The notes: a model not told the origin generated them from the sequence alone. Shown: positions 31,773 to 45,307, counted from the stretch's first letter. The stretch is 64,000 bases of DNA from an uncultured Anaerolinea sp. (GCA_964531975.1 CAZHFU010000001.1:11051-75050), one strand, 5' to 3'. Numbers and translations: made by a program.

Positions 31773-31803
31773 AATTTCCACCTTCTCTCAATACCAGTCA
31801 GGT

Positions 31804-32346: not shown

Positions 32347-32372
32347 GATTTCGGTATCCTTCCTGTTTACCG

Positions 32373-34316
32373 TTAATTGATTTGCAGCGCTACCGGCGAC
32401 ACACGGCGCAGCAAAGCGTTCTTCCAGTCGTCGCGGGTAGGAATATTAAGCATCATGCTCAGGTTGGCGAGCGTTTGGGCGGTGGTGGGCGCATCGTCGG
32501 GAGCTTGAATAACGGCCCTGGCAGCTTGCAAACGTCCATCGAGGTTGAGGTAATGGCCGGTTTGTTCATTCCAGGCGACGGTAGGCAGCACCACATCGGC
32601 CATTTCCGTGGCAGGCGAGGCATAAACAGCCTGAACCACTTTGAAGGGCGCTTTTTCGATGCGGCCCAGCAAGCGGGAGGTAGCGTAGTCGTCGGCCAGG
32701 GCCAGGAACACGGCCTGCTGTCCGTTAATTGAAAAGACTTTATCCAGGCCATATTGTGCAGCAGCCAGGCTGTTGGCTTCGCCCTTCATGCTCAAGAGGG
32801 CGCAAGTTTTGCCCAGGGCGCGCAGATCTTCAACCAGGCCAAACACCGAGCGCAGCGCGTTCATATCGGTTTGAGCGGTGAGGCCCTTGCCGTAGATGAC
32901 CACCGGGCGTTGGGCGGCGAAGATAGCCGCGCCCAGTTTCTCGGCGGTGGTTTGGGCTTCTGCCGCACAACCGGCGGATAGATTTTTGATGTATTGGCGT
33001 ACGCTTTCGATGACGGCTGAATCTTGCCCGGCTTCGGGTTCTAACACCATGCGGGCGACTGCCTTCATGCTGTTCTTGCCGGGGTCAATCACGGCCAGGG
33101 GTACATTGTTGGGCAGCAATCGCTTGATGAAGAAGCCGGCCACCTGGTGGCTGGAGGTTAAGTCGGCGCCAATGACGACCGCCATATCGGTATCTTTCAA
33201 ACTATCGAGGCGGCTTTCGTAGGGGCAGCCCAGGGCTTCAGCCATGCGAGACGCCCCGGCGGTGGGGTAGCCTTCTTCTATGCTGGTGACCATGGCGCTG
33301 CCCAATCCTTCGGCGAACAGATTGCGGAAGGCGAAGAGGGCTTCTGCGGGTAGGCGAGTGGAGGCGATGGCCGCCACGCCATCGCCATTCCGCCCGGCCA
33401 GGGGGGCCAGCCTGGCGGCTACCAGGCTCATGGCTTCATCCCACGTGGCGGGCTGCAGCGCCCCATCCTTACGCACCATGGGGGTGGTAATGCGCTTGCG
33501 CATGTCTTTCATGGGGTCAAAGCGACCTTTTTCGCATATTAACCCCTGGTTGAGGGCTGCGTCCCAATCGCCTTCGATGCGGGTGAGCTGGTTGTCGCGC
33601 GTCCATAGGGTGACCCCGCAGCCCACCGAGCAACCGACGCAGGTGGAGCTTTCGGCTTCCCAATTTCTGCGATGGCCTTTGTAGGCGCTGGCGCGGTCGA
33701 TGATGGCGCCGGTGGGGCACACCTGGGCGCACATGCCGCACGAAATGCACGACGATTGCCCTAAAGGCAGACCGAAATCTGCGGTGATGAGCGTGTCGGT
33801 TCCGCGTTCGCTGGCGGTTAAGGTGAAGTTGCCCACCAGGTCGGAACAGGCGCGGATGCAGCGGCGGCAAAGGATGCAGCGGTTGTGATCCAGCACCAGG
33901 TCGGCGTGGCTGGCGTCTAGTTCGAACTTCTTCCACTGGGGCGGGAAGTCCCAGGAGGTCATGCCTTCATGGTAGGCGGCATTTTGCAATTCGCAATCGC
34001 CGCCAGAGACCTGGCAGAAGGGGCAGAAGTGATTGCGTTCGCTAAACAGCATATCCAGGATGAACTTGCGCGAAGTGCGCAGGTTTACGGTGTCGGTCTC
34101 AACTACCATGCCATTTGCTACCGGAAGTGTGCATGAGGCGGTGGGAGCGCGCCAGCCTGCAATCTCTACGATGCACAAGCGGCAGCCGCCAAAAGGCTTC
34201 ACTGCGGGGTGGTCGCACAGGGTGGGAATTTCGATGCCGGCCTGGCGGGCAGCTTGAAGAACGGTGGTTCCTTCAGTGGCTTCAATTACTTTACCGTTAA
34301 TGGTTATTTGAACCAT
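32373..34316 (-). CDS. NuoG-like Fe-S subunit in the HoxU position (degenerate formate-dehydrogenase-like C-terminal domain)
   Basis: ~647 aa. It has 2Fe-2S (CDHPAVKPFGGCRLC), a His-ligated 4Fe-4S (HFCPFCQVSGGDC), two 4Fe-4S (CILCRRCIRAC, CISCGMCAQVCP) and CVGCSVGC...C. A molybdopterin-oxidoreductase-like domain follows but lacks the CARLUH active-site segment. Start ATG 34316 follows a GAAGGAG RBS. Confidence 0.85.
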   Translation of the reverse strand: MVQITINGKVIEATEGTTVLQAARQAGIEIPTLCDHPAVKPFGGCRLCIVEIAGWRAPTASCTLPVANGMVVETDTVNLRTSRKFILDMLFSERNHFCPFCQVSGGDCELQNAAYHEGMTSWDFPPQWKKFELDASHADLVLDHNRCILCRRCIRACSDLVGNFTLTASERGTDTLITADFGLPLGQSSCISCGMCAQVCPTGAIIDRASAYKGHRRNWEAESSTCVGCSVGCGVTLWTRDNQLTRIEGDWDAALNQGLICEKGRFDPMKDMRKRITTPMVRKDGALQPATWDEAMSLVAARLAPLAGRNGDGVAAIASTRLPAEALFAFRNLFAEGLGSAMVTSIEEGYPTAGASRMAEALGCPYESRLDSLKDTDMAVVIGADLTSSHQVAGFFIKRLLPNNVPLAVIDPGKNSMKAVARMVLEPEAGQDSAVIESVRQYIKNLSAGCAAEAQTTAEKLGAAIFAAQRPVVIYGKGLTAQTDMNALRSVFGLVEDLRALGKTCALLSMKGEANSLAAAQYGLDKVFSINGQQAVFLALADDYATSRLLGRIEKAPFKVVQAVYASPATEMADVVLPTVAWNEQTGHYLNLDGRLQAARAVIQAPDDAPTTAQTLANLSMMLNIPTRDDWKNALLRRVSPVALQIN

Positions 34317-34364
34317 ATGATGCACTCCTTCGACGTGATAAACACTTTGATTAATTTGTTTTAT

Positions 34365-36014
34365 TTAAGCGTGTTGAGGCACGGCCTCTTCGGGCGTCAT
34401 GGCGCATACACCCGTGGGGCAAACGCCCAGGCGAATGTGCGCTTCCACTTCGGTGCGAAAATGCTTGAGCATATCTTTAATCGGGGTGGAGGCGGTTTGG
34501 CCCAGGCCGCAGTTGGAAAGCCGTTCCATCTGCTCAATAATGGGGTTCAGGCTGCCCAAGTCTTCCAGCGTGGCCTGGCCTTCGGTGATGGCCTTAACAA
34601 TATCGAAATTGCGCTGCGTGCCGATGCGGCACGGGGTGCATTTACCGCAGCTTTCAAAGCGGAAGAATTGCAGCAAAGTTTTCACCAGGTCTACCACGCA
34701 GGTCTCGTCATTGCAGATGAGCAGCGCCCCCGAACCAAGCGAAACGCCGGCTTTGCGGTACGATTCGAAGTCCATGGGGGTATCTTGTAAGGCGGCGGGA
34801 ATAAGCGAGCCGCTTGAGCCGCCGGTCTGCGCCAGTTTAAAGGGCGAGTCGCCTTTCATGCCTTTGGCGTAGATGTTGATGACTTCGCGCAAGGTAATGC
34901 CCATGGGGACTTCGATCACGCCGGTGTTGTTGACATTGCCGAAGATCGTGTATACCTTTGTACCTGGGCTGGAAGGGGTTCCAAACTGGCGATACCAGGC
35001 TCCTCCATGACGAAGGATGGGCGGTACGTTGGCGAGGGTTTCGACATTGTTTACCAGGGTGGGTTTACCCCATAAACCATGGGTGGTGGGGTAAGGCGGG
35101 CGAGAACGCGGTTCGCCGCGCTTGCCTTCAATCGATTCGATGAGGGCGGTTTCTTCGCCGCAGACGTATGCGCCGGCCCCTGAATGGACATGCACATGGA
35201 AGTTGAACCCTGAATCGAAGATGTTTTCGCCGAGCAGGCCGTAGGCCTCTGCCTGTTGAATGGCGTGAGCAAAACGCTGCTGCGCCAAGAGATATTCGCC
35301 GCGAATGTAGATATAGCCTTCATCGGCCCCAACACTGTAGCCGGCGATGATGATCGCCTCTAGCACGGCGTGGGGGTCGCTTTCCAAAAGAACGCGGTCT
35401 TTGAAAGTGCCGGGTTCGGATTCGTCGGCGTTGCAGATGACATATTTCTTGCTGCCTGGCGTGCCGGCCACAAACGACCACTTGCGTCCCACGGGGAAGC
35501 CTGCTCCGCCGCGGCCTTGTAGGCCAGAAGCATTGAGTTCATCAATGACTTCCTTGGGGGTCATTTGAGTCAGCGCCTTTGCCAGGGCCTCGTAGCCACT
35601 GTTGGCGATGTAATCGTCTATGTTTTCGGGGTCAATTTTACCGGCGCGTTCGAGGATGATCCGTTGTTCGGCGGGCATTGAACCTTTGCGAGCGTTTAGC
35701 CAGGCAATTCGCCCGGTGAGTTCTCGCTTCGGGGCCAGCAGTTCCTCGGCCACACGACCCTTATAGAGATGTTCTTCGACGATGCGGGTCACATCTTCCG
35801 GTTTGATGGGGCCATATACCACCGCTTCGGGATAAATAATCACCATGGGGGTGGCGTCGCTGCGTCCTACGTCTACGATGGTGGAAAGGGCGATTTCGTC
35901 GCTCAGGCCCAGGCGGTCGATTTCAGACTCTAAGCGGCGGAATACCTCTTCTGAGCCACGCAGCTGACTGCGCGGATCGTTTGAGACTAACACCATTGCG
36001 CGTTTGATTTTCAT
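34365..36014 (-). CDS. hoxF: NuoF-like NAD(H)/FMN/4Fe-4S diaphorase subunit (module 1, no C-terminal ferredoxin domain)
   Basis: It has GLQGRGGAGFPVGRKW (FMN), CNADESEPGTFKDR, ESCGKCTPCRIG and SNCGLG. The N-terminal thioredoxin-like domain has no Cys ligands. Start ATG 36014 has an AAGGAG RBS 5 nt upstream. Confidence 0.9.
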   Translation of the reverse strand: MKIKRAMVLVSNDPRSQLRGSEEVFRRLESEIDRLGLSDEIALSTIVDVGRSDATPMVIIYPEAVVYGPIKPEDVTRIVEEHLYKGRVAEELLAPKRELTGRIAWLNARKGSMPAEQRIILERAGKIDPENIDDYIANSGYEALAKALTQMTPKEVIDELNASGLQGRGGAGFPVGRKWSFVAGTPGSKKYVICNADESEPGTFKDRVLLESDPHAVLEAIIIAGYSVGADEGYIYIRGEYLLAQQRFAHAIQQAEAYGLLGENIFDSGFNFHVHVHSGAGAYVCGEETALIESIEGKRGEPRSRPPYPTTHGLWGKPTLVNNVETLANVPPILRHGGAWYRQFGTPSSPGTKVYTIFGNVNNTGVIEVPMGITLREVINIYAKGMKGDSPFKLAQTGGSSGSLIPAALQDTPMDFESYRKAGVSLGSGALLICNDETCVVDLVKTLLQFFRFESCGKCTPCRIGTQRNFDIVKAITEGQATLEDLGSLNPIIEQMERLSNCGLGQTASTPIKDMLKHFRTEVEAHIRLGVCPTGVCAMTPEEAVPQHA

Positions 36015-36041
36015 GCTCACTCCTTTACCCGTTCTACACCG

Positions 36042-36539
36042 CTAGACGTATTTGCTCAAGATTTCAGGCAGCTGATCTGGCGTGACATTGCCATACATAT
36101 CTTCGTCAATCACTACCACCGGGCCAATGCCGCACACCCCCAGGCAGCTGGTCGTTACCAGGGAGAAGCGGTTATCCGGTGTGGTTTCGCCGGCTTTCAG
36201 GGCGAGGGCGTCTTGCAGGGCTTGCCAAACCTGGCGGCCGCCCATGACGTGGCATGGGGCGCTTTCGCAAAACAGTACCACATGCCGCCCGCGAGGCTTG
36301 GTGGAGAGCATATGATAGAAGCTTGCCAGGCCGTAGAGCAGGCTGGTTTGCACGTGCATCCCGTCTTTGCTCGAAAGCAGTTGACGGCGCATTTCGACCA
36401 GCGCTTCACCAGGAATGTACCCGTAAGTGTTGTTGATCTCTAGCAAGATCGGAATGATCGAATCGTGGTGGCGGCCATTCTTTTCGATGGCGGCTTCTAC
36501 AATCGCAGTGAATCCATCTTTGGTCAACATATCGGTCAT
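36042..36539 (-). CDS. hoxE: NuoE-like 2Fe-2S subunit (module 1)
   Basis: The Cys ligand contexts are CESAPCHVMGG and SCLGVCGIGPVV. I trimmed the start to ATG 36539, because AGGAGG lies 6 nt upstream and the track start at 36647 overlaps the preceding gene. Confidence 0.88.
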   Translation of the reverse strand: MTDMLTKDGFTAIVEAAIEKNGRHHDSIIPILLEINNTYGYIPGEALVEMRRQLLSSKDGMHVQTSLLYGLASFYHMLSTKPRGRHVVLFCESAPCHVMGGRQVWQALQDALALKAGETTPDNRFSLVTTSCLGVCGIGPVVVIDEDMYGNVTPDQLPEILSKYV

Positions 36540-36549
36540 GTGCATCCTC

Positions 36550-38358
36550 CTAAAGAGCCACAGTGAGAGGTTCCGAGACAACTTTAACCGCGTTAAAGTT
36601 GCAGACCTGCAAACAAATGCCACAGCGGATACAGGTATTGATATCAATTACGTGCGTATGGCGGCGTTCGCCGGAAATGGCTTCCACCGGGCAGTTGCGG
36701 GCGCATACGGTGCAGCCGGTGCAGGCTTCCTCGGAGATATCATAGCGAATGAGGGGCTTGCAAACCTTGGCCGGGCAGTATTTGCCGTAGATATGCGCTT
36801 CGTACTCGTGGCGGAAATGTTTAAGGGTGCTGACAACCGGGGCAGGCGCACCCTGGCCCAGGCCGCACAAACTGTTCTTGCTCACTTCGTGGCACAATGT
36901 TTCGAGCTTTTCGATGTCGCCATGTTCGCCATCGCCGTTGCAAATCTTTTCGAGCAGATCGAGAATACGGCGTGTGCCGATGCGGCAAGGGGTGCACTTG
37001 CCGCAGCTTTCATCTTGGGTGAATTCCATGAAGTAGCGGGCGATATCCACCATGCAGGTTTCGTTATCCAAGATCACCAGGCCGCCGGAACCCATCATGG
37101 CGCCTGCAGAGATGAGCGATTCATAATCAATTTGGTAATCGAGGTATTGCTCTGGCAGACAGCCGCCCATTGGGCCGCCGATTTGGGCGGCTTTGAAGCC
37201 TTTATCATCCACAATGCCGCCGCCCACATCGTACACGACTTCGCGCAAGGTGATGCCCATGGGAACTTCGATCAGGCCGGTGTTGCGCACGTCGCCGGCG
37301 ATGGCGAAGGTCTTTGTGCCTTTCGAGCGTTCGGTTCCCATCGATGCAAACCATTCGGGGCCGCGTAAAATGATTTGCGGGACGTTGGCGTAGGTTTCGA
37401 CGTTGTTAACGTTCGACGGCTTTTTCCACAACCCGGCCTGGGCGGGGAAGGGCGGGCGCGGACGGGGTTCGCCGCGGCGGCCTTCGATCGAGGCGATGAG
37501 GGCGGTTTCTTCGCCGCACACAAAGGCGCCTGCGCCCATGCGCACTTCCAGGTCGAATGAGAAATTGCTGCCCATGATGTTTTCGCCCAGCAAGCCCAGC
37601 TCGCGCGCCTGGCGAATGCCGATCCTCAGGCGTTCAACGGCGATGGGATATTCGGCTCGACAGTAGACGAATCCCTGGCTGGCTCCGATGGCGTAGGCGG
37701 CGATGGTCATGCCTTCGATGACCGAATGCGGATCGCTTTCAAGGACGCGCCGGTTCATGAACGCGCCGGGGTCGCCTTCATCGGCGTTGCAGATGACGAA
37801 CTTCTGATCGCCGGGGTTTTGGCGGCACAGCGACCATTTTCTCCCCGTCGGGAACCCGGCTCCGCCGCGCCCGCGCAAGCCGGAACTGCTGACGGTCTCG
37901 ATCACGGTTTCGGGGGTCATCTCGTTGAGCGCCTTCGCCAACGCCATGTAGCCGTCTTCGGCGATATATTCTTCGATATTGGTGGGATCGATTTTGCCGC
38001 AGTTGCGCAGCACGATACGCACTTCTTTTGGCTTAGGCGGGCCAAGCTCTTCATCGGCGGCGGCGGCGGCTTTTAACAGGAATTTACTCACCACCCGCCC
38101 TTTGAGGAAATGTTCTTCCACCAGGTAGGGGATGTCATCTGCAGAGAGATTGATGTAATGCACGTTCTCCGGGTAGACGACCAGGTCTGGCCCGAATTGA
38201 GTGGGTTCGCCCAGGCGAGAGGTTTCCAACACCTGGACCTCGGCAATCAGACCCTGCGCCACCAACTCGTCGTGCAGCGCGTCGATGATCTCGTACGCGC
38301 CTCGCTCCAAACATTCTGGGTCTACCGATACGAGTACATGTGAACGATAAAATGGCAT
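36550..38358 (-). CDS. NuoF/HydB-like subunit with C-terminal 2x[4Fe-4S] ferredoxin domain (module 2, bifurcating-type architecture)
   Basis: 602 aa. It has GLRGRGGAGFPTGRKW, CNADEGDPGAFMNR, ESCGKCTPCRIG and SLCGLG. The C-terminal tail carries CTGCTVCARNCP and CIRCGICLQVC. Confidence 0.88.
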   Translation of the reverse strand: MPFYRSHVLVSVDPECLERGAYEIIDALHDELVAQGLIAEVQVLETSRLGEPTQFGPDLVVYPENVHYINLSADDIPYLVEEHFLKGRVVSKFLLKAAAAADEELGPPKPKEVRIVLRNCGKIDPTNIEEYIAEDGYMALAKALNEMTPETVIETVSSSGLRGRGGAGFPTGRKWSLCRQNPGDQKFVICNADEGDPGAFMNRRVLESDPHSVIEGMTIAAYAIGASQGFVYCRAEYPIAVERLRIGIRQARELGLLGENIMGSNFSFDLEVRMGAGAFVCGEETALIASIEGRRGEPRPRPPFPAQAGLWKKPSNVNNVETYANVPQIILRGPEWFASMGTERSKGTKTFAIAGDVRNTGLIEVPMGITLREVVYDVGGGIVDDKGFKAAQIGGPMGGCLPEQYLDYQIDYESLISAGAMMGSGGLVILDNETCMVDIARYFMEFTQDESCGKCTPCRIGTRRILDLLEKICNGDGEHGDIEKLETLCHEVSKNSLCGLGQGAPAPVVSTLKHFRHEYEAHIYGKYCPAKVCKPLIRYDISEEACTGCTVCARNCPVEAISGERRHTHVIDINTCIRCGICLQVCNFNAVKVVSEPLTVAL

Positions 38359-38402
38359 AATGATCCTTCTTTGTATTCTATGCTATGAAGCGCGCCGTCA
38401 AA

Positions 38403-38765
38403 CTAAATGACGAATTCTTTGACGATTTGGCCGCCAATGACGTGCCGGCGCATAATCTCACGAGCCACTTCGGGGGTAACTTTGCCGTAGGAAACAGCCG
38501 GCTGATCGCCCACGATAACCTGGATGATCGGTTCAAACGAATCGATGCCGATGTTGCCGGTTTGGCGCACCATAATCTGGCTGAGATTTTCGGTTTCGAT
38601 GATTTCCAGGATGGCCTTCATGGTGTCGCGCGCGCCCGCGGCGATGCCAGGTGTGCCCATACCAACCACAATTTGCACGTGCCCAGGCTCGTTTTTGATA
38701 TCGCGTTTTTGCAAAGCCTCTTCGCGAATACGCTTCAGGTCTTCGATTGATTTAATGGTAGGCAT
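38403..38765 (-). CDS. thioredoxin-like [2Fe-2S]-ferredoxin-fold protein with no cysteines (cluster-less)
   Basis: 120 aa. VVGMGTPGIAAGA and QTGNIGIDSFEP align to the canonical C-x-G-T-x-C and T-G-C-x-G-x-C-x-x-x-P patterns of HydB-N/standalone Trx-like ferredoxins. The protein contains zero Cys. Confidence 0.75.
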   Translation of the reverse strand: MPTIKSIEDLKRIREEALQKRDIKNEPGHVQIVVGMGTPGIAAGARDTMKAILEIIETENLSQIMVRQTGNIGIDSFEPIIQVIVGDQPAVSYGKVTPEVAREIMRRHVIGGQIVKEFVI

Positions 38766-38785
38766 TTGTAATCTCCTGTTTATTA

Positions 38786-39406
38786 TTAGCTGCCAGACTG
38801 GCCTGAGCCAATGCGATTGGCGCGGGTCAGATGGGGGTTGAGGTTCGTGCGAATTCGACTTACACCTTCTTGAAGGGTGGTGCGCAGGAAGGCTAGCACG
38901 TCGGGATTAGTTAGCAGATCGGGGTCGCCCAAAGCCAGTTTAATTTCAGCGTCGTCAAAGATGAAAGGCTCCAGGGCCTGGCCGGCGGCGGTGCGGGCCT
39001 GGTATTCCAGCCGCCAGTGAATTTCAGGGTGGCCCACCACCAGGGTGAGCATTAGCCCGGCCACATCGCCCAAGGGCATGCGATCAATGTGGGTATGCTG
39101 GAAATCTACGGCCACGGTGGCGCCCTTGCCCAGGCGCGAGTTGATCGACATTTGACCGCGGCACATTTCGGCGGCGGCTTTTAGAAGCGGCAGACCCAGG
39201 CCCACCTTACGAGTGGTGCGGCTGGTGACAAATGGGTCGAGGGCGGCGCGGGCCGTTTCTTCGCTCATCCCCCGCCCATTATCCTGGACGCGCAGCGTTA
39301 GTCGGTCGGCCAACAAATCCTCTTCGATGAAGATTGTGATTTGGGTGGCGCGCGCCGCAACGCTGTTCTCGGCAATATCCAGGAGGTGCAGGGACAATTC
39401 TTTCAT
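38786..39406 (-). CDS. stand-alone GHKL (histidine-kinase-like) ATPase embedded in the diaphorase module
   Basis: It has an N-box HLLDIAENSVAA, a G1 box VQDNGRGM and a G2 box GLGLPLL. There is no DHp/phospho-acceptor His domain. I trimmed the start to ATG 39404-39406, 5 nt after the upstream stop. Confidence 0.8.
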   Translation of the reverse strand: MKELSLHLLDIAENSVAARATQITIFIEEDLLADRLTLRVQDNGRGMSEETARAALDPFVTSRTTRKVGLGLPLLKAAAEMCRGQMSINSRLGKGATVAVDFQHTHIDRMPLGDVAGLMLTLVVGHPEIHWRLEYQARTAAGQALEPFIFDDAEIKLALGDPDLLTNPDVLAFLRTTLQEGVSRIRTNLNPHLTRANRIGSGQSGS

Positions 39407-39410
39407 GCGC

Positions 39411-39923
39411 TTATTTTGGTTCCTGAACTTTACGCAGAATTTGGGGGAATTTGTTTGGTTTGACGCGCCCTTGAGCTTCGTCATCCACTACCACAACCGG
39501 GGCCTGGCTGCATGCTCCCACGCAGCGGCAGACTTCGAGGGTAATTAGCCCATCGGCGGTGGTCTGTCCTATGTCGATGCCCAGGGCTTGCTTGGCTTTT
39601 TCGATTAGCTGCGGTGTGCCGCCGACATAGCAGGCGGTTCCCATGCAGAACTTGATGACGTGCTTGCCGCGCGGCTGCGTGGTGAAGAAGGAATAGAAAG
39701 TCACCACCCCATGCACAGAGCTGACGGGGACGTGCAGCTTCTGGGCCACGTAAGCTTGCATCGGTTCGGAAATGTGGCCGATGCGATTTTGTAGATCATT
39801 GAGTACCACCATAACTGCACCGGGTAAATGCTCGTTTTCCGCGAGTACCTGGTCGATGATGGCGCGCTGCTCGGGCATGCTAATCGGGTCGTTTACGGGA
39901 ATGTTATCTAGTTGAAGTTTCAT
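39411..39923 (-). CDS. NuoE/HydC-like 2Fe-2S subunit (module 2)
   Basis: 170 aa. The Cys ligand contexts are CMGTACYVGG and CRCVGACSQAPVV. It is the first gene after the AT-rich spacer. Confidence 0.88.
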   Translation of the reverse strand: MKLQLDNIPVNDPISMPEQRAIIDQVLAENEHLPGAVMVVLNDLQNRIGHISEPMQAYVAQKLHVPVSSVHGVVTFYSFFTTQPRGKHVIKFCMGTACYVGGTPQLIEKAKQALGIDIGQTTADGLITLEVCRCVGACSQAPVVVVDDEAQGRVKPNKFPQILRKVQEPK

Positions 39924-40087
39924 TCATCTCTCCAAATGTGAAAAAACGCACAATAAGTTTACCTGAATAGTCTAATATTTGTAATGGCAGAATGTCATCT
40001 TTACGTGTGATAGTTGTCTATGTAACCGACACGGCAGGTAACACGATTACGTCGTTTCCGGCGAAGGATGACGGATTGTTTTTCCTA
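39924..40087 (-). promoter_or_regulatory. AT-rich intergenic spacer, likely promoter/operator of the diaphorase-hydrogenase-FDH operon
   Basis: This is the only gap longer than 100 nt inside the 16.5-kb cluster, and it is much more AT-rich than its surroundings. The minus strand carries TGACAT...TATTAG-like hexamers and a GGAGAG RBS before ATG 39923. No hexamer pair is a clean consensus. Confidence 0.35.
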
Positions 40088-40828
40088 TTATTCAGTGGCG
40101 CGCAATGAGCGTCCTTTGACGCCCATCACCGCCCATTCGATATCTTGCACGGTGAGCGCTTCCACTTGGTAAAGGTTTACAGATTGAAAATCCGCGGCGT
40201 AATGGACATCTCCGCCTAACACAAGCGGGTAACGCTGAATTTGCGGGAAGCGCCGGCGCGCTTCGAGCGGAGGGCAGCGGCGCGAAACCTCCAGCACTTC
40301 GACCTCCAACCCAGGGGGGACAAACCCCAAGGTGGGCAGTAATCCAAACGCCTGGCGGTCTACATGGGCGGGGATGGGCAGCCCACCCAGGGCGCGCACC
40401 CCACTTACGGCTTGTTCGAGCGTCATGTGGCAAGATACGATCAGGAGGCGTTTTTCTTCGCCCAGCAGATCGCCGGTGTAATCGACCAGGTATTGCTCGC
40501 CAATCTTTTCGGGGTCGTTTTCCAGGTGGGGCAATTGGGCGTCTACGATGGCTTGCCAGGCGGCCAACTGGCCGATTGTATCGAACAAGCATAGTAAATG
40601 CACATCCTCGCGGGTTTGTAGCTCCATGCCGGGGAGCACCAACAGGGGTGTGCCTTGGGCGGCTTCCATCACCGCGGCGCAGTTGCCGGTCGCGTTGTGG
40701 TCGGTAATAAAGATGCAATCTAAACCAGTCTCTAAAGCGCGCGTAACGATCACGGGGGGAATCATTTCCACCCCGGCGCACGGGGATAACACCGTATGAA
40801 CGTGCAGCTCGATCCGCGCTGTGATCAT
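40088..40828 (-). CDS. PHP-domain phosphoesterase
   Basis: 246 aa. It has the N-terminal metal motif ELHVHTVLSPCA, then ITDHN and later His/Asp motifs typical of the PHP fold. Confidence 0.8.
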   Translation of the reverse strand: MITARIELHVHTVLSPCAGVEMIPPVIVTRALETGLDCIFITDHNATGNCAAVMEAAQGTPLLVLPGMELQTREDVHLLCLFDTIGQLAAWQAIVDAQLPHLENDPEKIGEQYLVDYTGDLLGEEKRLLIVSCHMTLEQAVSGVRALGGLPIPAHVDRQAFGLLPTLGFVPPGLEVEVLEVSRRCPPLEARRRFPQIQRYPLVLGGDVHYAADFQSVNLYQVEALTVQDIEWAVMGVKGRSLRATE

Positions 40829-40834
40829 GGCCTT

Positions 40835-41182
40835 CTAACCGGCTGGAAGGCCCATCTCGTAAAGCCGACCCACCACTTCATATAATGTCAGGGGGGTAGA
40901 CAGCAAGGTCACTTCTTGATCGGCGGCCTTGGCTAACACGTCGGCTTCGGGCACGCCGTTTTCGGTAATGATCACGGCGCTTTGTTCGAGCAGCGCCGCG
41001 ACCGCCACCACATTGATGTGAGATTGCAGCGTGACCCACACCCCGCCGTTTTTAGCGCCCGCCATAACGCAGCTAAGCAGATCGGAGGCGTAGCCCGAGG
41101 TGGGGAAGGATTGGTTGAAATCTTGCTGATTGGTGAGAACTTTGAGGTCTAAAGCTTCGATTATATTTTGCAGAGTAATCAT
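40835..41182 (-). CDS. DRTGG-domain protein
   Basis: 115 aa. It matches the DRTGG-family pattern (ASDLLSCVMA...VWVTLQSHINVVAVAAL...VTLLSTPLTLYEVVGRLY). Its ATG overlaps the upstream TAA by 1 nt. Confidence 0.8.
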   Translation of the reverse strand: MITLQNIIEALDLKVLTNQQDFNQSFPTSGYASDLLSCVMAGAKNGGVWVTLQSHINVVAVAALLEQSAVIITENGVPEADVLAKAADQEVTLLSTPLTLYEVVGRLYEMGLPAG

Positions 41183-42183
41183 TAGTCGTCTTCTCCACTG
41201 AAATGAGAACTTTCGCGAAAACTTTCATCCGGTTGCAGATAGATTTTCATTTCTAACTTTGTGCCTTTGCCTGCGGTGGATTGAAGGCTCATTTTATCGA
41301 CGCAGCGTTTAATGTTGAGCAGGCCCATGCCGGCCCCAAAGCCTAATTCGCGGATTTGCTCCCCGGCGGTGGAATAGCCCGCTTGCATGGCAAGGGGAAC
41401 ATCGCTAATGCCGGGGCCTTCATCGATGGTTTGCATTAGGATTCGGTGGGGTTCAATTTCGACTCGGATGATGCCGCCGGAGGTGGTGTGAATGATGAGG
41501 TTCATTTCGGCTTCATAGATGGCAATGCCGCAGCGGCGTGCAATTTGCGGGTTCGCGCCCAGGCGCAGCAGCGCGCGCTTAATGTTGCTAGAGGCATCGC
41601 CGCCATGCAAAAAGTCGCCGTTTTTGATGCGGTAGCGTAAGATCAGGCTGGTGCGGTCGGATCGTATGTCTTCGAACAGGTGGCTGGCGCGGTAACGGCG
41701 CACTTCTTCGGTTTGATAGTCGGTTTGCAAGGCGTTCAGCAGGCCGCGGGTTATGTCGCCCTTGGTAATCATGCCCACCAGGGCGCCTTCGTGGTTAATT
41801 ACTGGCAGGCGGCCCACTTTGCGCCGTCCGAAGGTCTCCATCGCTTCCACGGCGGCGTCAAATTCCTGAATGGTGATCAGTTCGGAACTCATATATTGCG
41901 AGATAGGGGCATTAAGATCATTCGCCTGCATGGCGCGAATCAGATCTTCCAGGCTAACCACGCCACACAGCTTTCCTTTGCATACCACCGGTAGGCCTGA
42001 AATGCGGCGCTGTCGCAGCGTTTCGAGGACGTCGTTCATCGTATCGGTTGGCGACGCAGTGCTGAGGTCGGTAGACATGACCTCGCGCACTTTGAGGTCG
42101 TAAGCTAACTCTTCAACACGACTGATGAGGTTGGCGTCTTCATCCGTAACAATTCGCTTACCGGAGGGGGATAAGGCAGCCAT
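41182..42183 (-). CDS. CBS-pair plus GHKL Ser-kinase-like (RsbW/SpoIIAB-type) protein
   Basis: Two CBS motifs lie in the N-terminal half. The C-terminal half has the N-box YEAEMNLIIH, G1 IDEGPGI and G2 GFGAGMGL. I trimmed the start to ATG 42183, directly after the upstream stop at 42185. Confidence 0.8.
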   Translation of the reverse strand: MAALSPSGKRIVTDEDANLISRVEELAYDLKVREVMSTDLSTASPTDTMNDVLETLRQRRISGLPVVCKGKLCGVVSLEDLIRAMQANDLNAPISQYMSSELITIQEFDAAVEAMETFGRRKVGRLPVINHEGALVGMITKGDITRGLLNALQTDYQTEEVRRYRASHLFEDIRSDRTSLILRYRIKNGDFLHGGDASSNIKRALLRLGANPQIARRCGIAIYEAEMNLIIHTTSGGIIRVEIEPHRILMQTIDEGPGISDVPLAMQAGYSTAGEQIRELGFGAGMGLLNIKRCVDKMSLQSTAGKGTKLEMKIYLQPDESFRESSHFSGEDD

Positions 42184-42184
42184 G

Positions 42185-42556
42185 TTATTCTCCCAGGCAT
42201 TCGGGCAGATTGTTCTCGAAACTAGGCAGCCCGGCGCGATAGAGGCGGCCACAGACCTCGAACATGCCATAGGGGGTGGTGATGAGAGGAATGCCTTCGG
42301 CCTCGGCTAGCTCGATGGTTTCTTTGGGGGGCTGTTTGCCGCGCACAAACACAATGGCGCGCACATCGGCCATTTGCGCGGTGCGTACTACCTGCGGATT
42401 GCATAGTCCGGTGAGCAAGACAGCTTCGGGTTGAATGGAGGCCAGCACATCGCTCATTAAATCCGCTCCGCAGCCCCCGGCCACCTCCTGTTCAAGAGAA
42501 ACTTGAGTGGTAAAGCATGTTCCGCGAACGATTTCGATAACATCTTTGATTTTCAT
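42185..42556 (-). CDS. DRTGG-domain protein
   Basis: 123 aa. GADLMSDVLASIQPEAVLLTGLCNPQVVRTAQMADVRAIVFVRGK...IPLITTPYGMFEVCGRLY. Confidence 0.8.
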   Translation of the reverse strand: MKIKDVIEIVRGTCFTTQVSLEQEVAGGCGADLMSDVLASIQPEAVLLTGLCNPQVVRTAQMADVRAIVFVRGKQPPKETIELAEAEGIPLITTPYGMFEVCGRLYRAGLPSFENNLPECLGE

Positions 42557-42568
42557 AGACTATTTCGC

Positions 42569-43381
42569 TTACTTAAAATCGATCCTTTCGGGTATTGTAT
42601 AGACAATGAAGCGTTGTTTGGCGGCATAGCCAATTAAAGTTATGCCGTATTGCTGCGCCAGATTTAGCGATAGGGTAGAGGGGGCGGTGCGCGAAATGAG
42701 CAGGTGCGCGCCAATGCGGTGCGCTTTCTGAAGCATTTCAGAGGAAATGCGCCCGGTGGTTAGCACAACCTGGGCCGGCTGCGGCGGCGGCTGCATGAGC
42801 AGACGGCCGGCGAGCTTATCGAGTGTGTTGTGGCGCCCAATATCATCGGCGCTAAACAGAACGCGTTGGCCGTCGCTTAAAACGGAGGTGTGGATACCGC
42901 CCGCCAATCGATATAAGCTTTGGGATTCGAAGAGAGAATCTACCAGATCGGTGATTTGTTGGGTTGAATAGCGACCGACTTCTTCCGCCGGAATAGCTAA
43001 GGGGGCGGATGCGGGCGAATCTTCCTGAGAGTGTACGCTGGTGGCGCCGCCGGTACAGCCGCTGGTGCGGCGCCAATCGGGGGGTTGGGCGACGGTTTTG
43101 TTGAGCCACACATCGATATTATCGCCGGCGTCGCACACGCGCACCGAGGCGGTTTCATCGTAACGTTGGATCACGCCTTCGTTGAACAGAAAGCCGAGCG
43201 CCAGCGCTTCAAGATCAACCGGGGTACACATTAAGGTCAGCCAGGTGGCGCCGTTGACAGAGAGAGAAACCGGTTGTTCGACAATAACCTGGCCGAGGTT
43301 GGGGCGCGCCCCTTGGGCGTCAACTTGCAGCCAGGTGAAGGGCCGACTGGGGGGGAATGGATTAGAATGAGAGATAGTCAT
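42569..43381 (-). CDS. fdhD: formate dehydrogenase accessory sulfurtransferase FdhD
   Basis: 270 aa. EQPVSLSVNG, LALGFLFNEG, the Cys loop RRTSGCTGG, GGIHTS, IGRHNTLDKL, and a C-terminal ISRTAPSTLSLNLAQQYGITLIGY. Confidence 0.88.
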   Translation of the reverse strand: MTISHSNPFPPSRPFTWLQVDAQGARPNLGQVIVEQPVSLSVNGATWLTLMCTPVDLEALALGFLFNEGVIQRYDETASVRVCDAGDNIDVWLNKTVAQPPDWRRTSGCTGGATSVHSQEDSPASAPLAIPAEEVGRYSTQQITDLVDSLFESQSLYRLAGGIHTSVLSDGQRVLFSADDIGRHNTLDKLAGRLLMQPPPQPAQVVLTTGRISSEMLQKAHRIGAHLLISRTAPSTLSLNLAQQYGITLIGYAAKQRFIVYTIPERIDFK

Positions 43382-43544: not shown

Positions 43545-44036
43545 TTATTCACGCAGCATGATCCACATCATTTCATTAAACACCCGCAGCCGGTAAAGGA
43601 TAGCGGCCACACGCCACAAGCGTTGGAACGCCGGAGGTAGGGTGGGCGGCGTTACGCGCCGGAAACCAAAGCGGAGGTAGAAGCTGCCCATGGATGGGCG
43701 GCAGGTGAGGTAAAGCGGGCCGGGGTGAGTTTCAACCAGGCGCGCAATAATGGCCGAGGCTGCGCCTTGACCACGGGCCTTCTCCACCGTGGCGATGGAA
43801 GCCAGTTCTTGGGTTCCATCGCCATGGCGTTTGACTTGACCACAAGCTAAGATTTGTCCATTGCCATCAACCGCCAGCCAGAAACGCGGCCAGTGCAGCC
43901 CCAGGGGGTTAATATGCACCTGCCGGATGAGGGCGCGGATGGCCGCCTGGTCGGCGGGTGTGGCTGGCCGCAGGATAAATGGCGAGGCGTGGGGCGAAGC
44001 CGCCTCGCCCGGTTGATCTGTCAGGGCAGCGTCCAT
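43545..44036 (-). CDS. GNAT family N-acetyltransferase
   Basis: 163 aa. It has the acetyl-CoA-binding motif ARGQGAASAII (Q/RxxGxG/A) and a C-terminal FYLRFGF. Confidence 0.85.
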   Translation of the reverse strand: MDAALTDQPGEAASPHASPFILRPATPADQAAIRALIRQVHINPLGLHWPRFWLAVDGNGQILACGQVKRHGDGTQELASIATVEKARGQGAASAIIARLVETHPGPLYLTCRPSMGSFYLRFGFRRVTPPTLPPAFQRLWRVAAILYRLRVFNEMMWIMLRE

Positions 44037-45307
44037 AGGCTAAGCTGCCGCAGCCCCACTTGCAGATTGGGTGTGCCGCCGGAACCGATTATCAGCCCAA
44101 ACAGACCGCCCGAGTAGGTGGGGTCATTAAACTGCGCCAGCAGTTGACCATTGGCCGACAGGCTGAGCATTGCTCCCTGGCCGGCGACCTGCATCACATT
44201 TTCTTGATTGGCCCCGGCTCGGATAGAGGGCGCGTTGGTCCAGTTATATAGGCCGGTGTAATTGCCATTATCCATGCGATAGATACGGAATTGTCCATCG
44301 CAATTGAAGGTGAATATATAGCCGCTATCGATGATGTTATCGGGCTGCGAAGGGGCGCGCGCCAGCAAGCCGTAGCTGTCGCGCCCGGCGCACTGCGCTC
44401 CGGTAACGAAGCGTGCTTCGAGAGCGAAGTTGGCGATATACGATCCTTCGGCCACGCGCCACATATCGCCGGTGGTGAAGGCGGTCATGATGAGCATGTT
44501 GTTGTTGACTTTATAGGAAACGCTGCTGTCGTCTCCTAGATAGAAGGGAGCTTTGTTATTGTTGAAGCTCCAGGTTTGGCTGGGCGGCCCCAGGGTGGAG
44601 GCGGAAACTGGTGTGGGGATGGAGGCGGGCGGATTGGCTGCGGTGGGGGCTGGCGCGCCTGGGCTGACTCTGATTTTCACCCAAAAGGCCACGGAGGCGT
44701 TTTGGCCCAGGGCGAAGTCGCCCCCGGCCGGGCTGCGCAGCATCCAAAAGCCTTGGTGTTCGCCGGCAGCCGCCGGGCTGGTTTGGGGCAGGTAAATTTG
44801 AAGGCTGCCGCCGGGGGGCGTGGTCTGCCCAATCGGCTGCGGGCTGGTTCCGCCCATTTGTTCGCCGCGGCTGAATACCAGGGCGTATTCGGGCGTCCAG
44901 GTGCATGTGCCGGCGTTTTGGATTGTCCAGGTCTTCATGAATGGGGTGTTAGGGGGGAAGGCGCTGCCATCCGGAACGGTTTCTCCCACAAACTTTGCCA
45001 GGTTGGTGCAGTTGGCGGGCTGCTGCACGGGGGCGGCGGGCGGCGCGGCGGGGGTTGCCTGGGCCAGCTGTGTGGCCGCGGGGCTGCCGGAGGTGGGGGC
45101 CGCCCCCGCAGTGGAGGCAATGGCCGTGCCGGTGGCCTGCCCGGCGGCTGCAACCGAGGTGACGATTGCCGCCTGGGTTTGCTCAACCATTATTTCTAAA
45201 TCGGGGGTGGGGCTGGTAGCTGCGGCCGGTAGATTGCATGCCCCTAAAAGTAAAACTGCCAACACCAGGAAAATTCGATGGAATTGCATAATAAACCTCC
45301 AATTCAT
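44021..45307 (-). CDS. lipoprotein with NBR1-FW-like domain plus C-terminal concanavalin/LamG-like (DUF1080-type) domain (paralogue 5)
   Basis: 428 aa. Lipobox LLGAC and an Ala/Pro linker are followed by CTNLAKFVGETVPDGSAFPPNTPFMKTWTIQNAGTCTW. The C-terminal ~190 aa follow a jelly-roll-like pattern (FALEARF...YGLLAR...GYIFTFNCDGQFRIYR...GLFGLI). Confidence 0.75.
   Translation of the reverse strand: MNWRFIMQFHRIFLVLAVLLLGACNLPAAATSPTPDLEIMVEQTQAAIVTSVAAAGQATGTAIASTAGAAPTSGSPAATQLAQATPAAPPAAPVQQPANCTNLAKFVGETVPDGSAFPPNTPFMKTWTIQNAGTCTWTPEYALVFSRGEQMGGTSPQPIGQTTPPGGSLQIYLPQTSPAAAGEHQGFWMLRSPAGGDFALGQNASVAFWVKIRVSPGAPAPTAANPPASIPTPVSASTLGPPSQTWSFNNNKAPFYLGDDSSVSYKVNNNMLIMTAFTTGDMWRVAEGSYIANFALEARFVTGAQCAGRDSYGLLARAPSQPDNIIDSGYIFTFNCDGQFRIYRMDNGNYTGLYNWTNAPSIRAGANQENVMQVAGQGAMLSLSANGQLLAQFNDPTYSGGLFGLIIGSGGTPNLQVGLRQLSLWTLP

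What the first reader, a model, noticed from the sequence alone, without database searches (positions are those of the whole stretch)
40088..42556. DRTGG / CBS-GHKL-kinase / DRTGG / PHP cassette attached to a NiFe-FDH operon without any sensory hydrogenase
SEEN: four tightly packed genes, with 1-nt and 1-2-nt junctions, sit between fdhD and the structural operon. They are two DRTGG proteins, a CBS-pair fused to an RsbW/SpoIIAB-type GHKL kinase domain (N, G1 and G2 boxes present), and a PHP phosphoesterase. No PAS domain, H-cluster domain, STAS partner, sigma factor or DNA-binding domain is encoded anywhere in 26851-43381. ESTABLISHED (from memory): similar DRTGG/GHKL-kinase/PHP genes accompany PAS-containing sensory [FeFe] hydrogenases next to bifurcating HydABC operons in Firmicutes, such as the Thermoanaerobacterium saccharolyticum hfs cluster and the Ruminococcus albus HydS neighbourhood. 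Their targets are still unclear. INFERENCE: here the cassette is combined with a NiFe/FDH system, and a CBS pair (an adenine-nucleotide or metabolite sensor) may replace HydS as the input. The phosphorylation target could be one of the diaphorase subunits or a DRTGG protein.
Basis: partly seen in the sequence, partly recalled or inferred. Interest (0 to 1): 0.6.

Follow-up and report, generated by a model that had tools for sequence, protein, structure and literature searches.

The report
CBS-sensor kinase cassette of bifurcating hydrogenases
Four small genes ahead of a hydrogenase/formate dehydrogenase operon form a widespread but unstudied regulatory cassette, in which a nucleotide-sensing (CBS) domain fused to a protein kinase takes the place of the hydrogen-sensor protein found in the better-known version.

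Summary
Four tightly packed minus-strand genes at 42556-40088 encode DRTGG1, a CBS-CBS-GHKL kinase (SpoIIAB/RsbW type), DRTGG2 and a PHP phosphoesterase. They lie between fdhD and an operon whose best solved-structure matches are the Acetomicrobium mobile electron-bifurcating NiFe-HydABCSL. That operon also carries a second NuoEF pair and a selenocysteine FDH.

A scan of one genome per species found at least 599 relatives of the kinase. In the best 80 loci the cassette is nearly always beside NuoE/NuoF genes, and it comes in two mutually exclusive forms:
- 35 loci have a free 140-aa kinase followed by a PAS-less [FeFe]-hydrogenase-like gene of the group D/M2e kind. Their catalytic partner is mostly [FeFe] HydA.
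- 45 loci have the CBS-fused kinase and no such gene. Their catalytic partner is mostly NiFe or FDH.

The arrangement is a common variant across many phyla, not unique to this window.

The hfs and Ruminococcus albus HydS systems are PAS-containing and use a Ser/Thr phosphatase. A second GHKL ATPase at 39406-38786 also belongs to the module.

The kinase's target and the PHP enzyme's substrate are inferred only. This is a new variant of a barely described system.

The parts
42185..42556 (-). DRTGG1: 123-aa single-domain DRTGG protein, the kinase-partner paralogue
   Evidence: Pfam DRTGG 2e-7. It lies directly upstream of the kinase in 78 of 81 loci (80 loci plus this window), with motif D32-L-M-S35 conserved at 99%. 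In other lineages it is fused N-terminally to the kinase (P0213, P0217, P0246, P0251, P0267); these score 90-129 bits on the DRTGG1 profile and 34-53 on the DRTGG2 profile.
41182..42183 (-). CBS-CBS-GHKL protein, 333 aa. CBS pair is about residues 29-155 (nt 42099-41719). SpoIIAB/RsbW-type GHKL domain is about residues 183-320 (nt 41637-41224).
   Evidence: Pfam CBS x2 1e-28, HATPase_c 2e-8, HATPase_c_2 8.5e-6. NCBIfam anti-sigma F factor 2e-12. PDB profile search: SpoIIAB 8e-13, RsbW 1e-4. N, G1 and G2 boxes are invariant. The G-h-h-S/T-x-x-D motif is present in both CBS domains and conserved across 81 homologues. An identical protein is called in public data.
40835..41182 (-). DRTGG2: 115-aa DRTGG protein, always between the kinase (or sensor) gene and the PHP gene; candidate phospho-acceptor
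   Evidence: Pfam DRTGG 6e-5, below the cut-off. AlphaFold pLDDT 95; Foldseek matches AF1212 (TM 0.80), the DRTGG domain of CBS-PPase (TM 0.74) and the HPrK/P N-terminal domain. D34, L36, S37, W49, T51 and N57 are invariant in 71 orthologues. S37 lies in the first turn of helix 36-42 in the model.
40088..40828 (-). PHP-family metal-dependent phosphoesterase, 246 aa
   Evidence: Pfam PHP 1.3e-5. AlphaFold pLDDT 96; Foldseek matches EndoQ (TMq 0.71), TrpH-like phosphoesterases, RNase AM and TM0559. Residues at the PHP metal-ligand positions are invariant. Present in 72 of 80 kinase loci.
38786..39406 (-). Second GHKL protein: a stand-alone histidine-kinase-type ATP-binding domain, 206 aa.
   Evidence: Pfam HATPase_c 1e-14. 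Best PDB sequence matches are histidine-kinase catalytic domains. Present in 63 of 80 loci. Fused to PHP in L075 and adjacent to PHP in many CBS-type loci. It appears to be the gene called 'HisK' in the A. mobile NiFe-HydABCSL operon, which was not found in the purified enzyme (PMC8880783).
38403..38765 (-). HydD-like thioredoxin-fold ferredoxin homologue, 120 aa, with no cysteine in this genome
   Evidence: NCBIfam 2Fe-2S ferredoxin 2.5e-8. Present in 64 of 80 loci. The window and its nearest relatives have 0 Cys in the domain (L004 and L011 have one Cys, outside the cluster motif), whereas most others keep 3-4.
39411..39923 (-). NuoE/HydC-type subunit: first gene of the structural operon and part of the invariably linked diaphorase module
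   Evidence: Pfam 2Fe-2S_thioredx 8e-46. NuoE is present in 68 of 80 kinase loci.
36550..38358 (-). NuoF/HydB-type flavoprotein with C-terminal 2x[4Fe-4S] (bifurcating type); candidate output target
   Evidence: Best solved-structure match is 7T2R chain B, HydB of A. mobile NiFe-HydABCSL, at 6e-252. NuoF is present in 64 of 80 kinase loci.
42569..43381 (-). fdhD (formate dehydrogenase maturation), 12 nt upstream of DRTGG1; a neighbour, not a conserved member of the cassette
   Evidence: Pfam FdhD-NarQ 7e-65. Seen upstream of the cassette in only 2 other loci, L004 and L005.

Best explanation
The four genes, together with the second GHKL ATPase at 39406-38786, form a conserved signalling cassette dedicated to NuoE/NuoF-containing (HydBC/Bfu-type) electron-bifurcating oxidoreductases. 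In this window the enzyme is a NiFe-HydABCSL-type hydrogenase with a linked selenocysteine formate dehydrogenase.

Shown:
- The core is a SpoIIAB/RsbW-type GHKL kinase paired with DRTGG1.
- The sensory input is interchangeable. In Bacillota and Bacteroidota-type loci it is a PAS-less group D/M2e [FeFe]-hydrogenase-like protein, encoded next to or fused to the kinase.
- In the clade to which this window belongs, it is an N-terminal CBS pair.

Inferred mechanism:
1. The CBS pair binds an adenine nucleotide (AMP/ADP/ATP, Ap4A or similar). Energy state, rather than H2, then gates the kinase.
2. The kinase, held in complex with DRTGG1, phosphorylates the invariant serine of the D-L-L-S motif of DRTGG2 (S37). 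In the model this serine lies in the first turn of a helix.
3. The PHP phosphoesterase, working with the second GHKL ATPase, reverses this step.
4. The phosphorylation state of the DRTGG proteins controls the activity or assembly of the NuoEF diaphorase/bifurcation module, or less likely its transcription.
For: - Domain identities.
- Linkage: in the best 80 of at least 599 confirmed kinase loci (one genome per species), DRTGG is present in 80/80 (two or more copies in 73), PHP in 72, NuoE in 68, NuoF in 64, the second ATPase in 63 and HydD-like in 64. The window's gene order is the commonest one, in 20 other loci.
- Sensor swap: 45/45 CBS-fused kinases lack a hydrogenase-like sensor nearby, and 35/35 unfused or sensor-fused kinases have one. 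The sensor is 2xFer4 + Fe_hyd_lg_C + FeS with no PAS. The GHKL tree gives two pure clades with one transition.
- Natural fusions link partners: DRTGG1-kinase, kinase-sensor and PHP-ATPase2.
- The catalytic partner varies (FeFe, NiFe, FDH, HdrA-like fusions) while NuoEF stays. This points to the diaphorase module as the common denominator.
- CBS ribose-binding motifs are conserved.
- No sigma, STAS, PP2C or DNA-binding family recurs in the flanks.
- An independently annotated contig carrying a PHP protein named from the cultured Thermanaerothrix daxensis shows the same order.
Against: - No biochemical data exist for any member.
- The nearest structural relatives of the PHP protein are EndoQ, RNase AM and pAp-phosphatase-like enzymes (16-20% identity). 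None of the 50 listed matches is described as a protein phosphatase.
- DRTGG is not a STAS fold and is not known to be phosphorylated. In CBS-pyrophosphatase it is part of a nucleotide-regulated insert (bioRxiv 10.1101/2020.04.07.028951).
- The association of sensor type with enzyme type rests on a single evolutionary split, so the Fisher p of 9e-9 is not phylogenetically independent.
- The 80 loci are those closest to the query, not a random sample.
- A hydrogenase-like sensor elsewhere in this genome cannot be excluded from 64 kb.
Confidence: 0.6

Rival explanations
1. A true anti-sigma or partner-switching system acting on transcription. The GHKL protein sequesters a sigma factor or another transcription factor encoded elsewhere, and a DRTGG protein plays the anti-anti-sigma role.
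For: The closest solved relatives of the GHKL domain are the anti-sigma F factor SpoIIAB (8e-13) and RsbW. The NCBIfam anti-sigma F model hits at 2e-12. The 164-nt gap before nuoE holds a promoter-like site, so the structural operon could be controlled separately. Land et al. note an AraC-type regulator next to TamHydS (PMC8163306).
Against: No sigma factor, STAS or PP2C gene is in 26851-43381, and none recurs in the flanks of 80 loci. The invariable neighbour is NuoEF, not a regulator. The NCBIfam score of 47 bits is far below the 135-bit cut-off of the anti-sigma F family.
Confidence: 0.15
2. A nucleotide-signal module without protein phosphorylation. The CBS pair and the DRTGG proteins assemble into a regulator like that of CBS-pyrophosphatase, which binds AMP/ATP/Ap4A. 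The GHKL domains act as ATP-driven conformational switches. The PHP enzyme hydrolyses the nucleotide signal (pAp, Ap4A or a cyclic or linear oligonucleotide). The complex regulates NuoEF allosterically.
For: DRTGG2 matches the CBS-PPase regulatory region (3L31/3L2B, TM 0.74). NCBIfam places both DRTGG proteins and the CBS region on CBS-pyrophosphatase models. The closest PHP relatives act on nucleotides or nucleic acids, and relatives are annotated by JGI as 3',5'-nucleoside bisphosphate phosphatase or TrpH. CBS-PPases are regulated by adenine nucleotides and diadenosine polyphosphates (PMC11172384).
Against: The hydrogenase-sensor form of the cassette has DRTGG and PHP but no CBS domain, so nucleotide sensing by CBS cannot be the core function. 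The GHKL domain keeps all kinase-type ATP-binding motifs of the Ser-kinase SpoIIAB family.
Confidence: 0.15
3. An assembly or maturation system rather than a regulator. The two GHKL ATPases, PHP and the DRTGG proteins help insert FMN or Fe-S cofactors into the NuoEF module, or help assemble it.
For: Feng et al. leave open 'maturation and/or regulation' for the extra genes of the A. mobile operon (PMC8880783). The accessory proteins were not among the five subunits of the purified A. mobile enzyme (PMC8880783). Linkage is to NuoEF whatever the catalytic subunit.
Against: Complex I and many NuoEF enzymes mature without such genes (established knowledge). CBS pairs and sensory hydrogenase-like domains are typical signal inputs, and an interchangeable sensor makes little sense for a chaperone.
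Confidence: 0.07

Closest known systems
Gene cluster around group D (M2e) putative sensory [FeFe]-hydrogenases upstream of trimeric bifurcating HydABC (TamHydS of Thermoanaerobacter mathranii; TTE0887, Cthe_0335, Csac_1857)
   Same: The same kinase family (44-50% identity in the GHKL domain). The same DRTGG - kinase - DRTGG - PHP order. The same NuoE / GHKL ATPase / HydD / NuoF neighbours. The literature notes only 'proximity to protein kinases' and a flanking 'histidine kinase-like ATPase' (PMC3561251, PMC8163306).
   Different: The window has no hydrogenase-like sensor gene; the kinase carries an N-terminal CBS pair instead. The enzyme is NiFe plus FDH, not [FeFe] HydA.
RsbW-RsbV-RsbU / SpoIIAB-SpoIIAA-SpoIIE partner-switching modules
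   Same: The GHKL Ser-kinase fold and motifs. The logic of small single-domain partner proteins plus an opposing phosphoesterase gene.
   Different: DRTGG replaces STAS and PHP replaces PP2C. There is no sigma factor. The system is linked to a metabolic enzyme operon.
   Same: A putative sensor linked to hydrogen metabolism that signals through protein phosphorylation.
   Different: These have a PAS domain and a Ser/Thr phosphatase partner, and in R. albus and the hfs cluster are co-encoded with a ferredoxin-only hydrogenase (PMC11837493, PMC6776011). DRTGG, GHKL and PHP genes are not described for them in those papers.
Regulatory insert of CBS-pyrophosphatases (CBS1-DRTGG-CBS2)
   Same: A CBS pair combined with DRTGG domains. 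DRTGG2 superposes on 3L31/3L2B. Regulation by adenine nucleotides and Ap4A is established for that insert (PMC11172384).
   Different: Here CBS and DRTGG are on separate polypeptides, the output domain is a kinase, and nucleotide binding is untested.
Acetomicrobium mobile NiFe-HydABCSL operon (PDB 7T2R/7T30)
   Same: The structural genes of the window are its closest solved relatives: HydB 6e-252, large subunit 8e-171. That operon also holds 'HydD' and 'HisK' genes of unknown role (PMC8880783).
   Different: That paper does not mention a kinase or CBS protein. The window adds a second NuoEF pair and a Sec-FDH.

Membership tests
SpoIIAB/RsbW partner-switching system | GHKL serine kinase / anti-sigma factor homologous to SpoIIAB or RsbW | tested here: met
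   The profile of the GHKL domain hits SpoIIAB structures at 8e-13 and RsbW at 1e-4. N, G1 and G2 boxes are invariant. The protein scores below the NCBIfam anti-sigma F cut-off (47 vs 135 bits), so it is a relative, not an orthologue.
SpoIIAB/RsbW partner-switching system | STAS-domain antagonist (RsbV/SpoIIAA) as phospho-acceptor | tested here: not met
   No STAS domain in any of the 17 genes. The small partner proteins have the DRTGG fold, and none of the 50 listed structure matches is described as a STAS-domain protein.
SpoIIAB/RsbW partner-switching system | PP2C-type phosphatase (RsbU/RsbP/SpoIIE) | tested here: not met
   The only phosphoesterase is PHP-family. No PP2C is found in the window operon, and no unlabelled family resembling one recurs in the 80 loci.
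SpoIIAB/RsbW partner-switching system | Cognate sigma factor under its control | tested here: inconclusive
   None in 26851-43381 and none recurrent in the flanks. A sigma factor elsewhere in the genome cannot be excluded.
Group D (M2e) HydS-associated cassette of bifurcating HydABC | DRTGG - GHKL kinase - DRTGG - PHP genes next to NuoE / GHKL ATPase / HydD / NuoF | tested here: met
   Same order and homologous proteins in 35 sensor-type and 45 CBS-type loci.
Group D (M2e) HydS-associated cassette of bifurcating HydABC | PAS-less [FeFe]-hydrogenase-like sensor (2x[4Fe-4S] + H-domain + C-terminal Cx2Cx4C..C) adjacent to or fused with the kinase | tested here: not met
   No such ORF anywhere in the 64-kb window. 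The rest of the genome could not be examined.
Group D (M2e) HydS-associated cassette of bifurcating HydABC | [FeFe] HydA catalytic subunit in the regulated operon | tested here: not met
   The NuoG-like subunit has no H-cluster. The catalytic units are NiFe (7T2R_D, 8e-171) and a molybdopterin FDH.
Group C sensory hydrogenase systems (HydS/HfsB with PAS plus Ser/Thr phosphatase) | H-cluster protein with a PAS domain | tested here: not met
   No PAS or H-cluster domain in the window operon. The sensors that accompany this kinase family elsewhere also lack PAS.
CBS-pyrophosphatase-type CBS/DRTGG nucleotide sensor | CBS pair with ribose-phosphate binding motif, and a DRTGG domain | tested here: met
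   CBS x2 at 1e-28. G-V-V-S-L-E-D and G-M-I-T-K-G-D motifs are conserved. The DRTGG fold matches 3L31/3L2B.
CBS-pyrophosphatase-type CBS/DRTGG nucleotide sensor | DRTGG inserted between the two CBS domains of one polypeptide; binding of AMP/ADP/ATP/Ap4A | tested here: not met
   The architecture differs: the DRTGG proteins are separate genes. Nucleotide binding itself is not testable with these tools.
NiFe-HydABCSL (Bfu-type electron-bifurcating NiFe hydrogenase), for the adjacent operon | HydB/HydC (NuoF/NuoE) with a HydA-like NuoG subunit lacking the H-cluster, plus NiFe small and large subunits | tested here: met
   7T2R_B 6e-252 and 7T2R_D 8e-171. Pfam/NCBIfam identify NuoE, NuoF, a NuoG-like 650-aa protein, the small subunit and the maturation protease. 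Bifurcating activity is not testable here.

The most novel reading that the evidence does not exclude
A widespread, undescribed signalling system, present in at least about 600 species. It has five components: DRTGG1, a SpoIIAB-like kinase, DRTGG2, a PHP phosphoesterase and a histidine-kinase-like ATPase. It controls flavin-based electron-bifurcating NuoEF enzymes after translation. DRTGG proteins would be a new class of serine phospho-acceptor, functional analogues of STAS proteins. A PHP enzyme would be a new kind of protein-serine phosphatase. The sensor would be modular: H2 or redox through a group D hydrogenase-like protein, or cellular energy charge through a CBS pair.
Probability: 0.22. 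Interest if true: 0.8.

Novelty: new variant of a known kind. Interest (0 to 1): 0.55.

Why it matters
How electron-bifurcating hydrogenases and formate dehydrogenases are regulated is an open question. These enzymes set the H2 and formate economy of fermenters and syntrophs. For the group D 'sensory' [FeFe]-hydrogenase, the published question is how any signal is transmitted (PMC8163306).

The comparison made here shows three things:
- The transmitter is probably the adjacent SpoIIAB-like kinase with its DRTGG, PHP and ATPase partners.
- This transmitter is tied to the NuoEF module rather than to the catalytic metal site.
- Nature has swapped its sensor at least once, for a CBS pair.

This gives concrete experiments: nucleotide binding, phosphotransfer to DRTGG2 S37, PHP activity on the phosphoprotein, and the effect on HydABCSL activity. 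A cultured carrier, Thermanaerothrix daxensis, is available. It also suggests that in Anaerolineae and many other anaerobes H2/formate cycling responds to energy charge rather than to H2 itself.

Tried and rejected
- Literature searches for DRTGG with hydrogenase, PHP/anti-sigma/NuoE, Bfu with CBS, and locus tags of the Clostridium/Thermoanaerobacter cassette genes found no study of these proteins. The Zheng 2014 R. albus paper is not held.
- Rfam found no riboswitch or other RNA family in the operon region; the only hit in the window is a tRNA at 60618-60689.
- The promoter/terminator scan gave only weak, chance-level sites, including one promoter-like site in the PHP-nuoE gap.
- A 174-aa ORF in L055 that hit the sensor query is only a polyferredoxin 8 kb away. 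It was rejected as a sensor.
- Long 'DRTGG' ORFs of 328-529 aa in L035, L070 and L074 are stop-to-stop artefacts of high-GC DNA, not fusions.
- PHP as a CpsB/YwqE-like protein-tyrosine phosphatase was considered, but none of the 50 listed structure matches is described as such an enzyme.
- The structure tools return no coordinates, so the kinase-DRTGG interface in natural fusions could not be inspected.
- The Fisher test on sensor type versus enzyme type is reported but discounted, because the tree shows a single split.


Full report
**1. What is in the sequence**

All genes of the region are on the minus strand. Reading 5' to 3', with Pfam/NCBIfam assignments:

| Gene | Coordinates | Note |
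|---|---|---|
| fdhD | 43381-42569 | |
| DRTGG1 | 42556-42185 | |
| CBS-CBS-GHKL protein | 42183-41182 | |
| DRTGG2 | 41182-40835 | |
| PHP phosphoesterase | 40828-40088 | followed by a 164-nt gap |
| NuoE | 39923-39411 | |
| second GHKL ATPase | 39406-38786 | stand-alone ATP-binding domain |
| HydD-like ferredoxin homologue | 38765-38403 | 120 aa |
| NuoF | 38358-36550 | C-terminal 2x[4Fe-4S] |
| second NuoE/NuoF pair | 36536-34365 | |
| NuoG-like subunit | 34325-32373 | 650 aa, no H-cluster |
| NiFe small and large subunits | 32346-30348 | |
| maturation protease | 30184-29723 | |
| formate dehydrogenase | 29628-26851 | interrupted by an in-frame TGA |

The junctions inside the cassette are 12 nt, 1 nt, a 1-nt overlap and 6 nt.

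The kinase starts at the ATG at 42183, giving 333 aa. The identical protein is called in public assemblies, with the same neighbours.

Two of the four domain calls sit at or just below Pfam's curated cut-offs: DRTGG2 at 23.2 vs 25.2 bits and PHP at 26.0 vs 26.4 bits. I therefore checked them by structure.
- The AlphaFold models are confident, with pLDDT 95 and 96.
- DRTGG2 superposes on the DRTGG protein AF1212 (TM 0.80), on the DRTGG domain of the CBS-pyrophosphatase regulatory region (TM 0.74), and on the N-terminal domain of HPr kinase.
- The PHP model matches PHP enzymes only.
- Residues at the canonical PHP metal-ligand positions are invariant in 58 relatives.

A profile of the GHKL domain finds the anti-sigma F factor/Ser kinase SpoIIAB (8e-13) and RsbW (1e-4) as the nearest solved relatives. 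The N, G1 and G2 ATP-binding boxes are invariant across 35 diverse homologues.

No PAS, STAS, H-cluster, sigma or DNA-binding domain occurs in 26851-43381. No hydrogenase-like sensor ORF exists in the whole 64-kb window.

**2. The neighbouring operon**

The best solved-structure matches are the B and large subunits of the Acetomicrobium mobile electron-bifurcating NiFe-HydABCSL: NuoF1 at 6e-252 and the NiFe large subunit at 8e-171 (7T2R). [quoted passage not shown] It says nothing about a CBS protein or kinase (PMC8880783).

**3. Relatives of the kinase**

An exhaustive search of 50%-identity cluster representatives shows the GHKL domain, at 44-50% identity, in four architectures:
- CBS-CBS-GHKL.
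- Free GHKL of about 140 aa.
- DRTGG-GHKL fusions.
- GHKL fused to 2x[4Fe-4S] + [FeFe]-hydrogenase H-domain + C-terminal FeS motif.

The best 80 loci come from Chloroflexota, Desulfobacterota, Planctomycetota, Acidobacteriota, Fidelibacterota, Bipolaricaulota, Spirochaetota, Bacteroidota and Bacillota.

I mapped these loci with the window's own proteins as queries. Nearly every locus has DRTGG - kinase - DRTGG - PHP beside NuoE, the second ATPase, HydD-like and NuoF. The window's exact order is the commonest, found in 20 further loci.

Two forms exist and they exclude each other:

| | Sensor form | CBS form |
|---|---|---|
| Loci | 35 | 45 |
| Kinase | free (fused to the sensor in L074) | CBS-fused |
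| Sensor gene of 420-480 aa directly after the kinase | yes | none within about 10 kb |
| Catalytic partner, where visible | FeFe 15, FDH 2, NiFe 0 | NiFe 20, FDH 6, FeFe 1 |

The sensor has 2xFer4 + Fe_hyd_lg_C + PF04060 and no PAS.

A neighbour-joining tree of the GHKL domains gives two pure clades and a single transition. The swap therefore looks like one old event that then spread. The Fisher p of 9e-9 for sensor type versus enzyme type should not be read as many independent associations.

An independently annotated contig, carrying a PHP protein that NCBI names from the cultured Thermanaerothrix daxensis, shows the same cassette. It is followed by NuoE, ATPase, HydD, NuoF, NuoE, NuoF, a formate transporter and FDH.

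**4. What the literature says**

The sensor that accompanies this kinase family has the features of the group D / M2e [FeFe]-hydrogenase.
- Land et al. characterised TamHydS. [quoted passage not shown] They asked how the signal is transmitted (PMC8163306).
- Carere et al. list TTE0887, Cthe_0335, Csac_1857 and others upstream of trimeric bifurcating hydrogenases. They class them as sensory because of 'their proximity to protein kinases' (PMC3561251).

- HfsB and R. albus HydS are group C, with a PAS domain.
- They are paired with a Ser/Thr phosphatase.
- They are co-encoded with ferredoxin-only hydrogenases (PMC11837493, PMC6776011).

Only 18 papers in the library contain the word DRTGG, and none concerns this cassette. 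I found no description of the CBS-fused form.

**5. How it most likely works**

Shown:
- The cassette is a conserved unit linked to NuoEF-type enzymes whatever their catalytic subunit.
- Its sensor is interchangeable.
- Natural fusions tie DRTGG1 to the kinase, the sensor to the kinase, and PHP to the second ATPase.
- DRTGG1 plus the kinase is the minimal core, because it survives in reduced loci such as L039, L040 and L043.

Inferred:
- Both CBS domains keep the G-h-h-S/T-x-x-D ribose-binding signature (the meaning of the motif is from established knowledge of CBS domains). The input is therefore probably an adenine nucleotide or a related ligand.
- Both DRTGG families share an invariant D-L-(L/M)-S motif. 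In the DRTGG2 model the serine (S37) lies in the first turn of a helix. From memory, the phospho-serines of SpoIIAA and HPr occupy the same kind of position. This makes S37 the best candidate acceptor.
- PHP, with the second ATPase, would reverse the modification.
- The output would act on the NuoEF module.

Points against:
- The closest structural relatives of the PHP protein are EndoQ, RNase AM and pAp-phosphatase-like enzymes, not protein phosphatases.
- DRTGG is known as part of a nucleotide-regulated insert, not as a phospho-acceptor.

A phosphorylation-free, nucleotide-signal model is therefore a serious rival. So is a genuine anti-sigma role with an unlinked sigma factor. A maturation role seems least likely, because an interchangeable sensor makes little sense for a chaperone.

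**6. Verdict**

- The 'CBS replaces the hydrogenase sensor' idea is strongly backed by comparative genomics.
- The precedent was misremembered: it is group D without PAS, not group C with PAS and a Ser/Thr phosphatase.
- The NiFe/FDH linkage is the norm for this variant rather than a peculiarity of this window.
- The cassette has at least five members, not four.

This is a new variant of a barely characterised kind of system. It is of moderate interest to specialists because it makes the signal-transduction question for bifurcating hydrogenases experimentally approachable.

Noticed in passing
window 28498-28530 (minus strand); FDH ORFs 29628-28528 and 28515-26851: The formate dehydrogenase is interrupted by an in-frame TGA at 28530-28528, in the context [31 protein letters not shown]. 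By recollection this is the selenocysteine position of FdhF-type enzymes. A hairpin GGUGGCC-GGUCU-GGCCGCC (28516-28498) follows directly and looks like a bacterial SECIS element. The gene is probably one selenoprotein of about 925 aa, not two ORFs.
   Followed up: partly
window 38786-39406 (minus strand): A second GHKL protein, a stand-alone histidine-kinase-type ATP-binding domain, sits between nuoE and the HydD-like gene. It occurs in 63 of 80 kinase loci, is fused to the PHP enzyme in L075, and lies next to PHP in many loci. It appears to be the 'HisK' gene of the A. mobile NiFe-HydABCSL operon, whose role is unknown.
   Followed up: partly
window 38403-38765 (minus strand); also the N-terminal ~95 residues of NuoF1 (38358-38074) and NuoF2 (36020-35736): The HydD-like thioredoxin-fold 'ferredoxin' has no cysteine at all in this window, so it cannot bind a 2Fe-2S cluster. 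L005, L007 and L008 likewise have none, and L004 and L011 have one Cys outside the cluster motif; most other homologues keep 3-4 Cys. The homologous N-terminal domains of both NuoF proteins also appear to lack the usual Cys ligands (by eye only).
   Followed up: partly
window 34365-39923 (minus strand): The operon carries two NuoE/NuoF pairs. One NuoF has 602 aa with a C-terminal 2x[4Fe-4S] domain (bifurcating HydB type). The other has 551 aa without it. The same double arrangement recurs in many Anaerolineae loci (L009-L015, L020, L022, L084).
   Followed up: no
L010, L028, L031, L035, L036, L040, L044, L045, L055, L056, L064, L068, L070 and others (e.g. L070:19028-19873): A protein of about 280 aa, with a response-regulator receiver domain and a Cys-rich C-terminal part but no recognisable DNA-binding domain, recurs in 16 of the 80 loci, mostly of the CBS form. 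It is absent from the window.
   Followed up: no
L031:10003-13266, L045:11900-15178, L056:11901-15179, L068, L070, L035, L036: In Planctomycetota, Acidobacteriota and Bacteroidota loci the CBS-type cassette sits next to a fusion of about 1090 aa. It joins a NuoG-like N-terminus (2Fe-2S, 4Fe-4S) to an HdrA-like flavoprotein, and is followed by NiFe small and large subunits. This appears to combine NuoEF and HdrA modules in a single locus.
   Followed up: partly
L016:13891-17025, L019:12452-15610, L021:15874-18993, L025, L028, L029, L055, L070: NuoF proteins of about 1040-1050 aa carry a C-terminal extension that, by eye, resembles a GltD-type pyridine-nucleotide oxidoreductase. They occur in several CBS-type loci, which suggests NADPH-linked variants of the regulated enzyme.
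   Followed up: no
window 25964-26668 and 44021-45307 (also 25069-25899, 24269-24922), minus strand: Secreted or lipoprotein-like proteins with Pro/Ala-rich linkers and a C-terminal N_BRCA1_IG (Nbr1-type Ig-like) domain flank the hydrogenase/FDH region on both sides, as a small paralogous family.
   Followed up: no
L084:16431-17303: In the Thermanaerothrix daxensis-type contig a formate/nitrite transporter gene lies between the second NuoF and the FDH. This fits a formate-cycling role for the regulated enzyme set. The window has no such gene in the operon.
   Followed up: no
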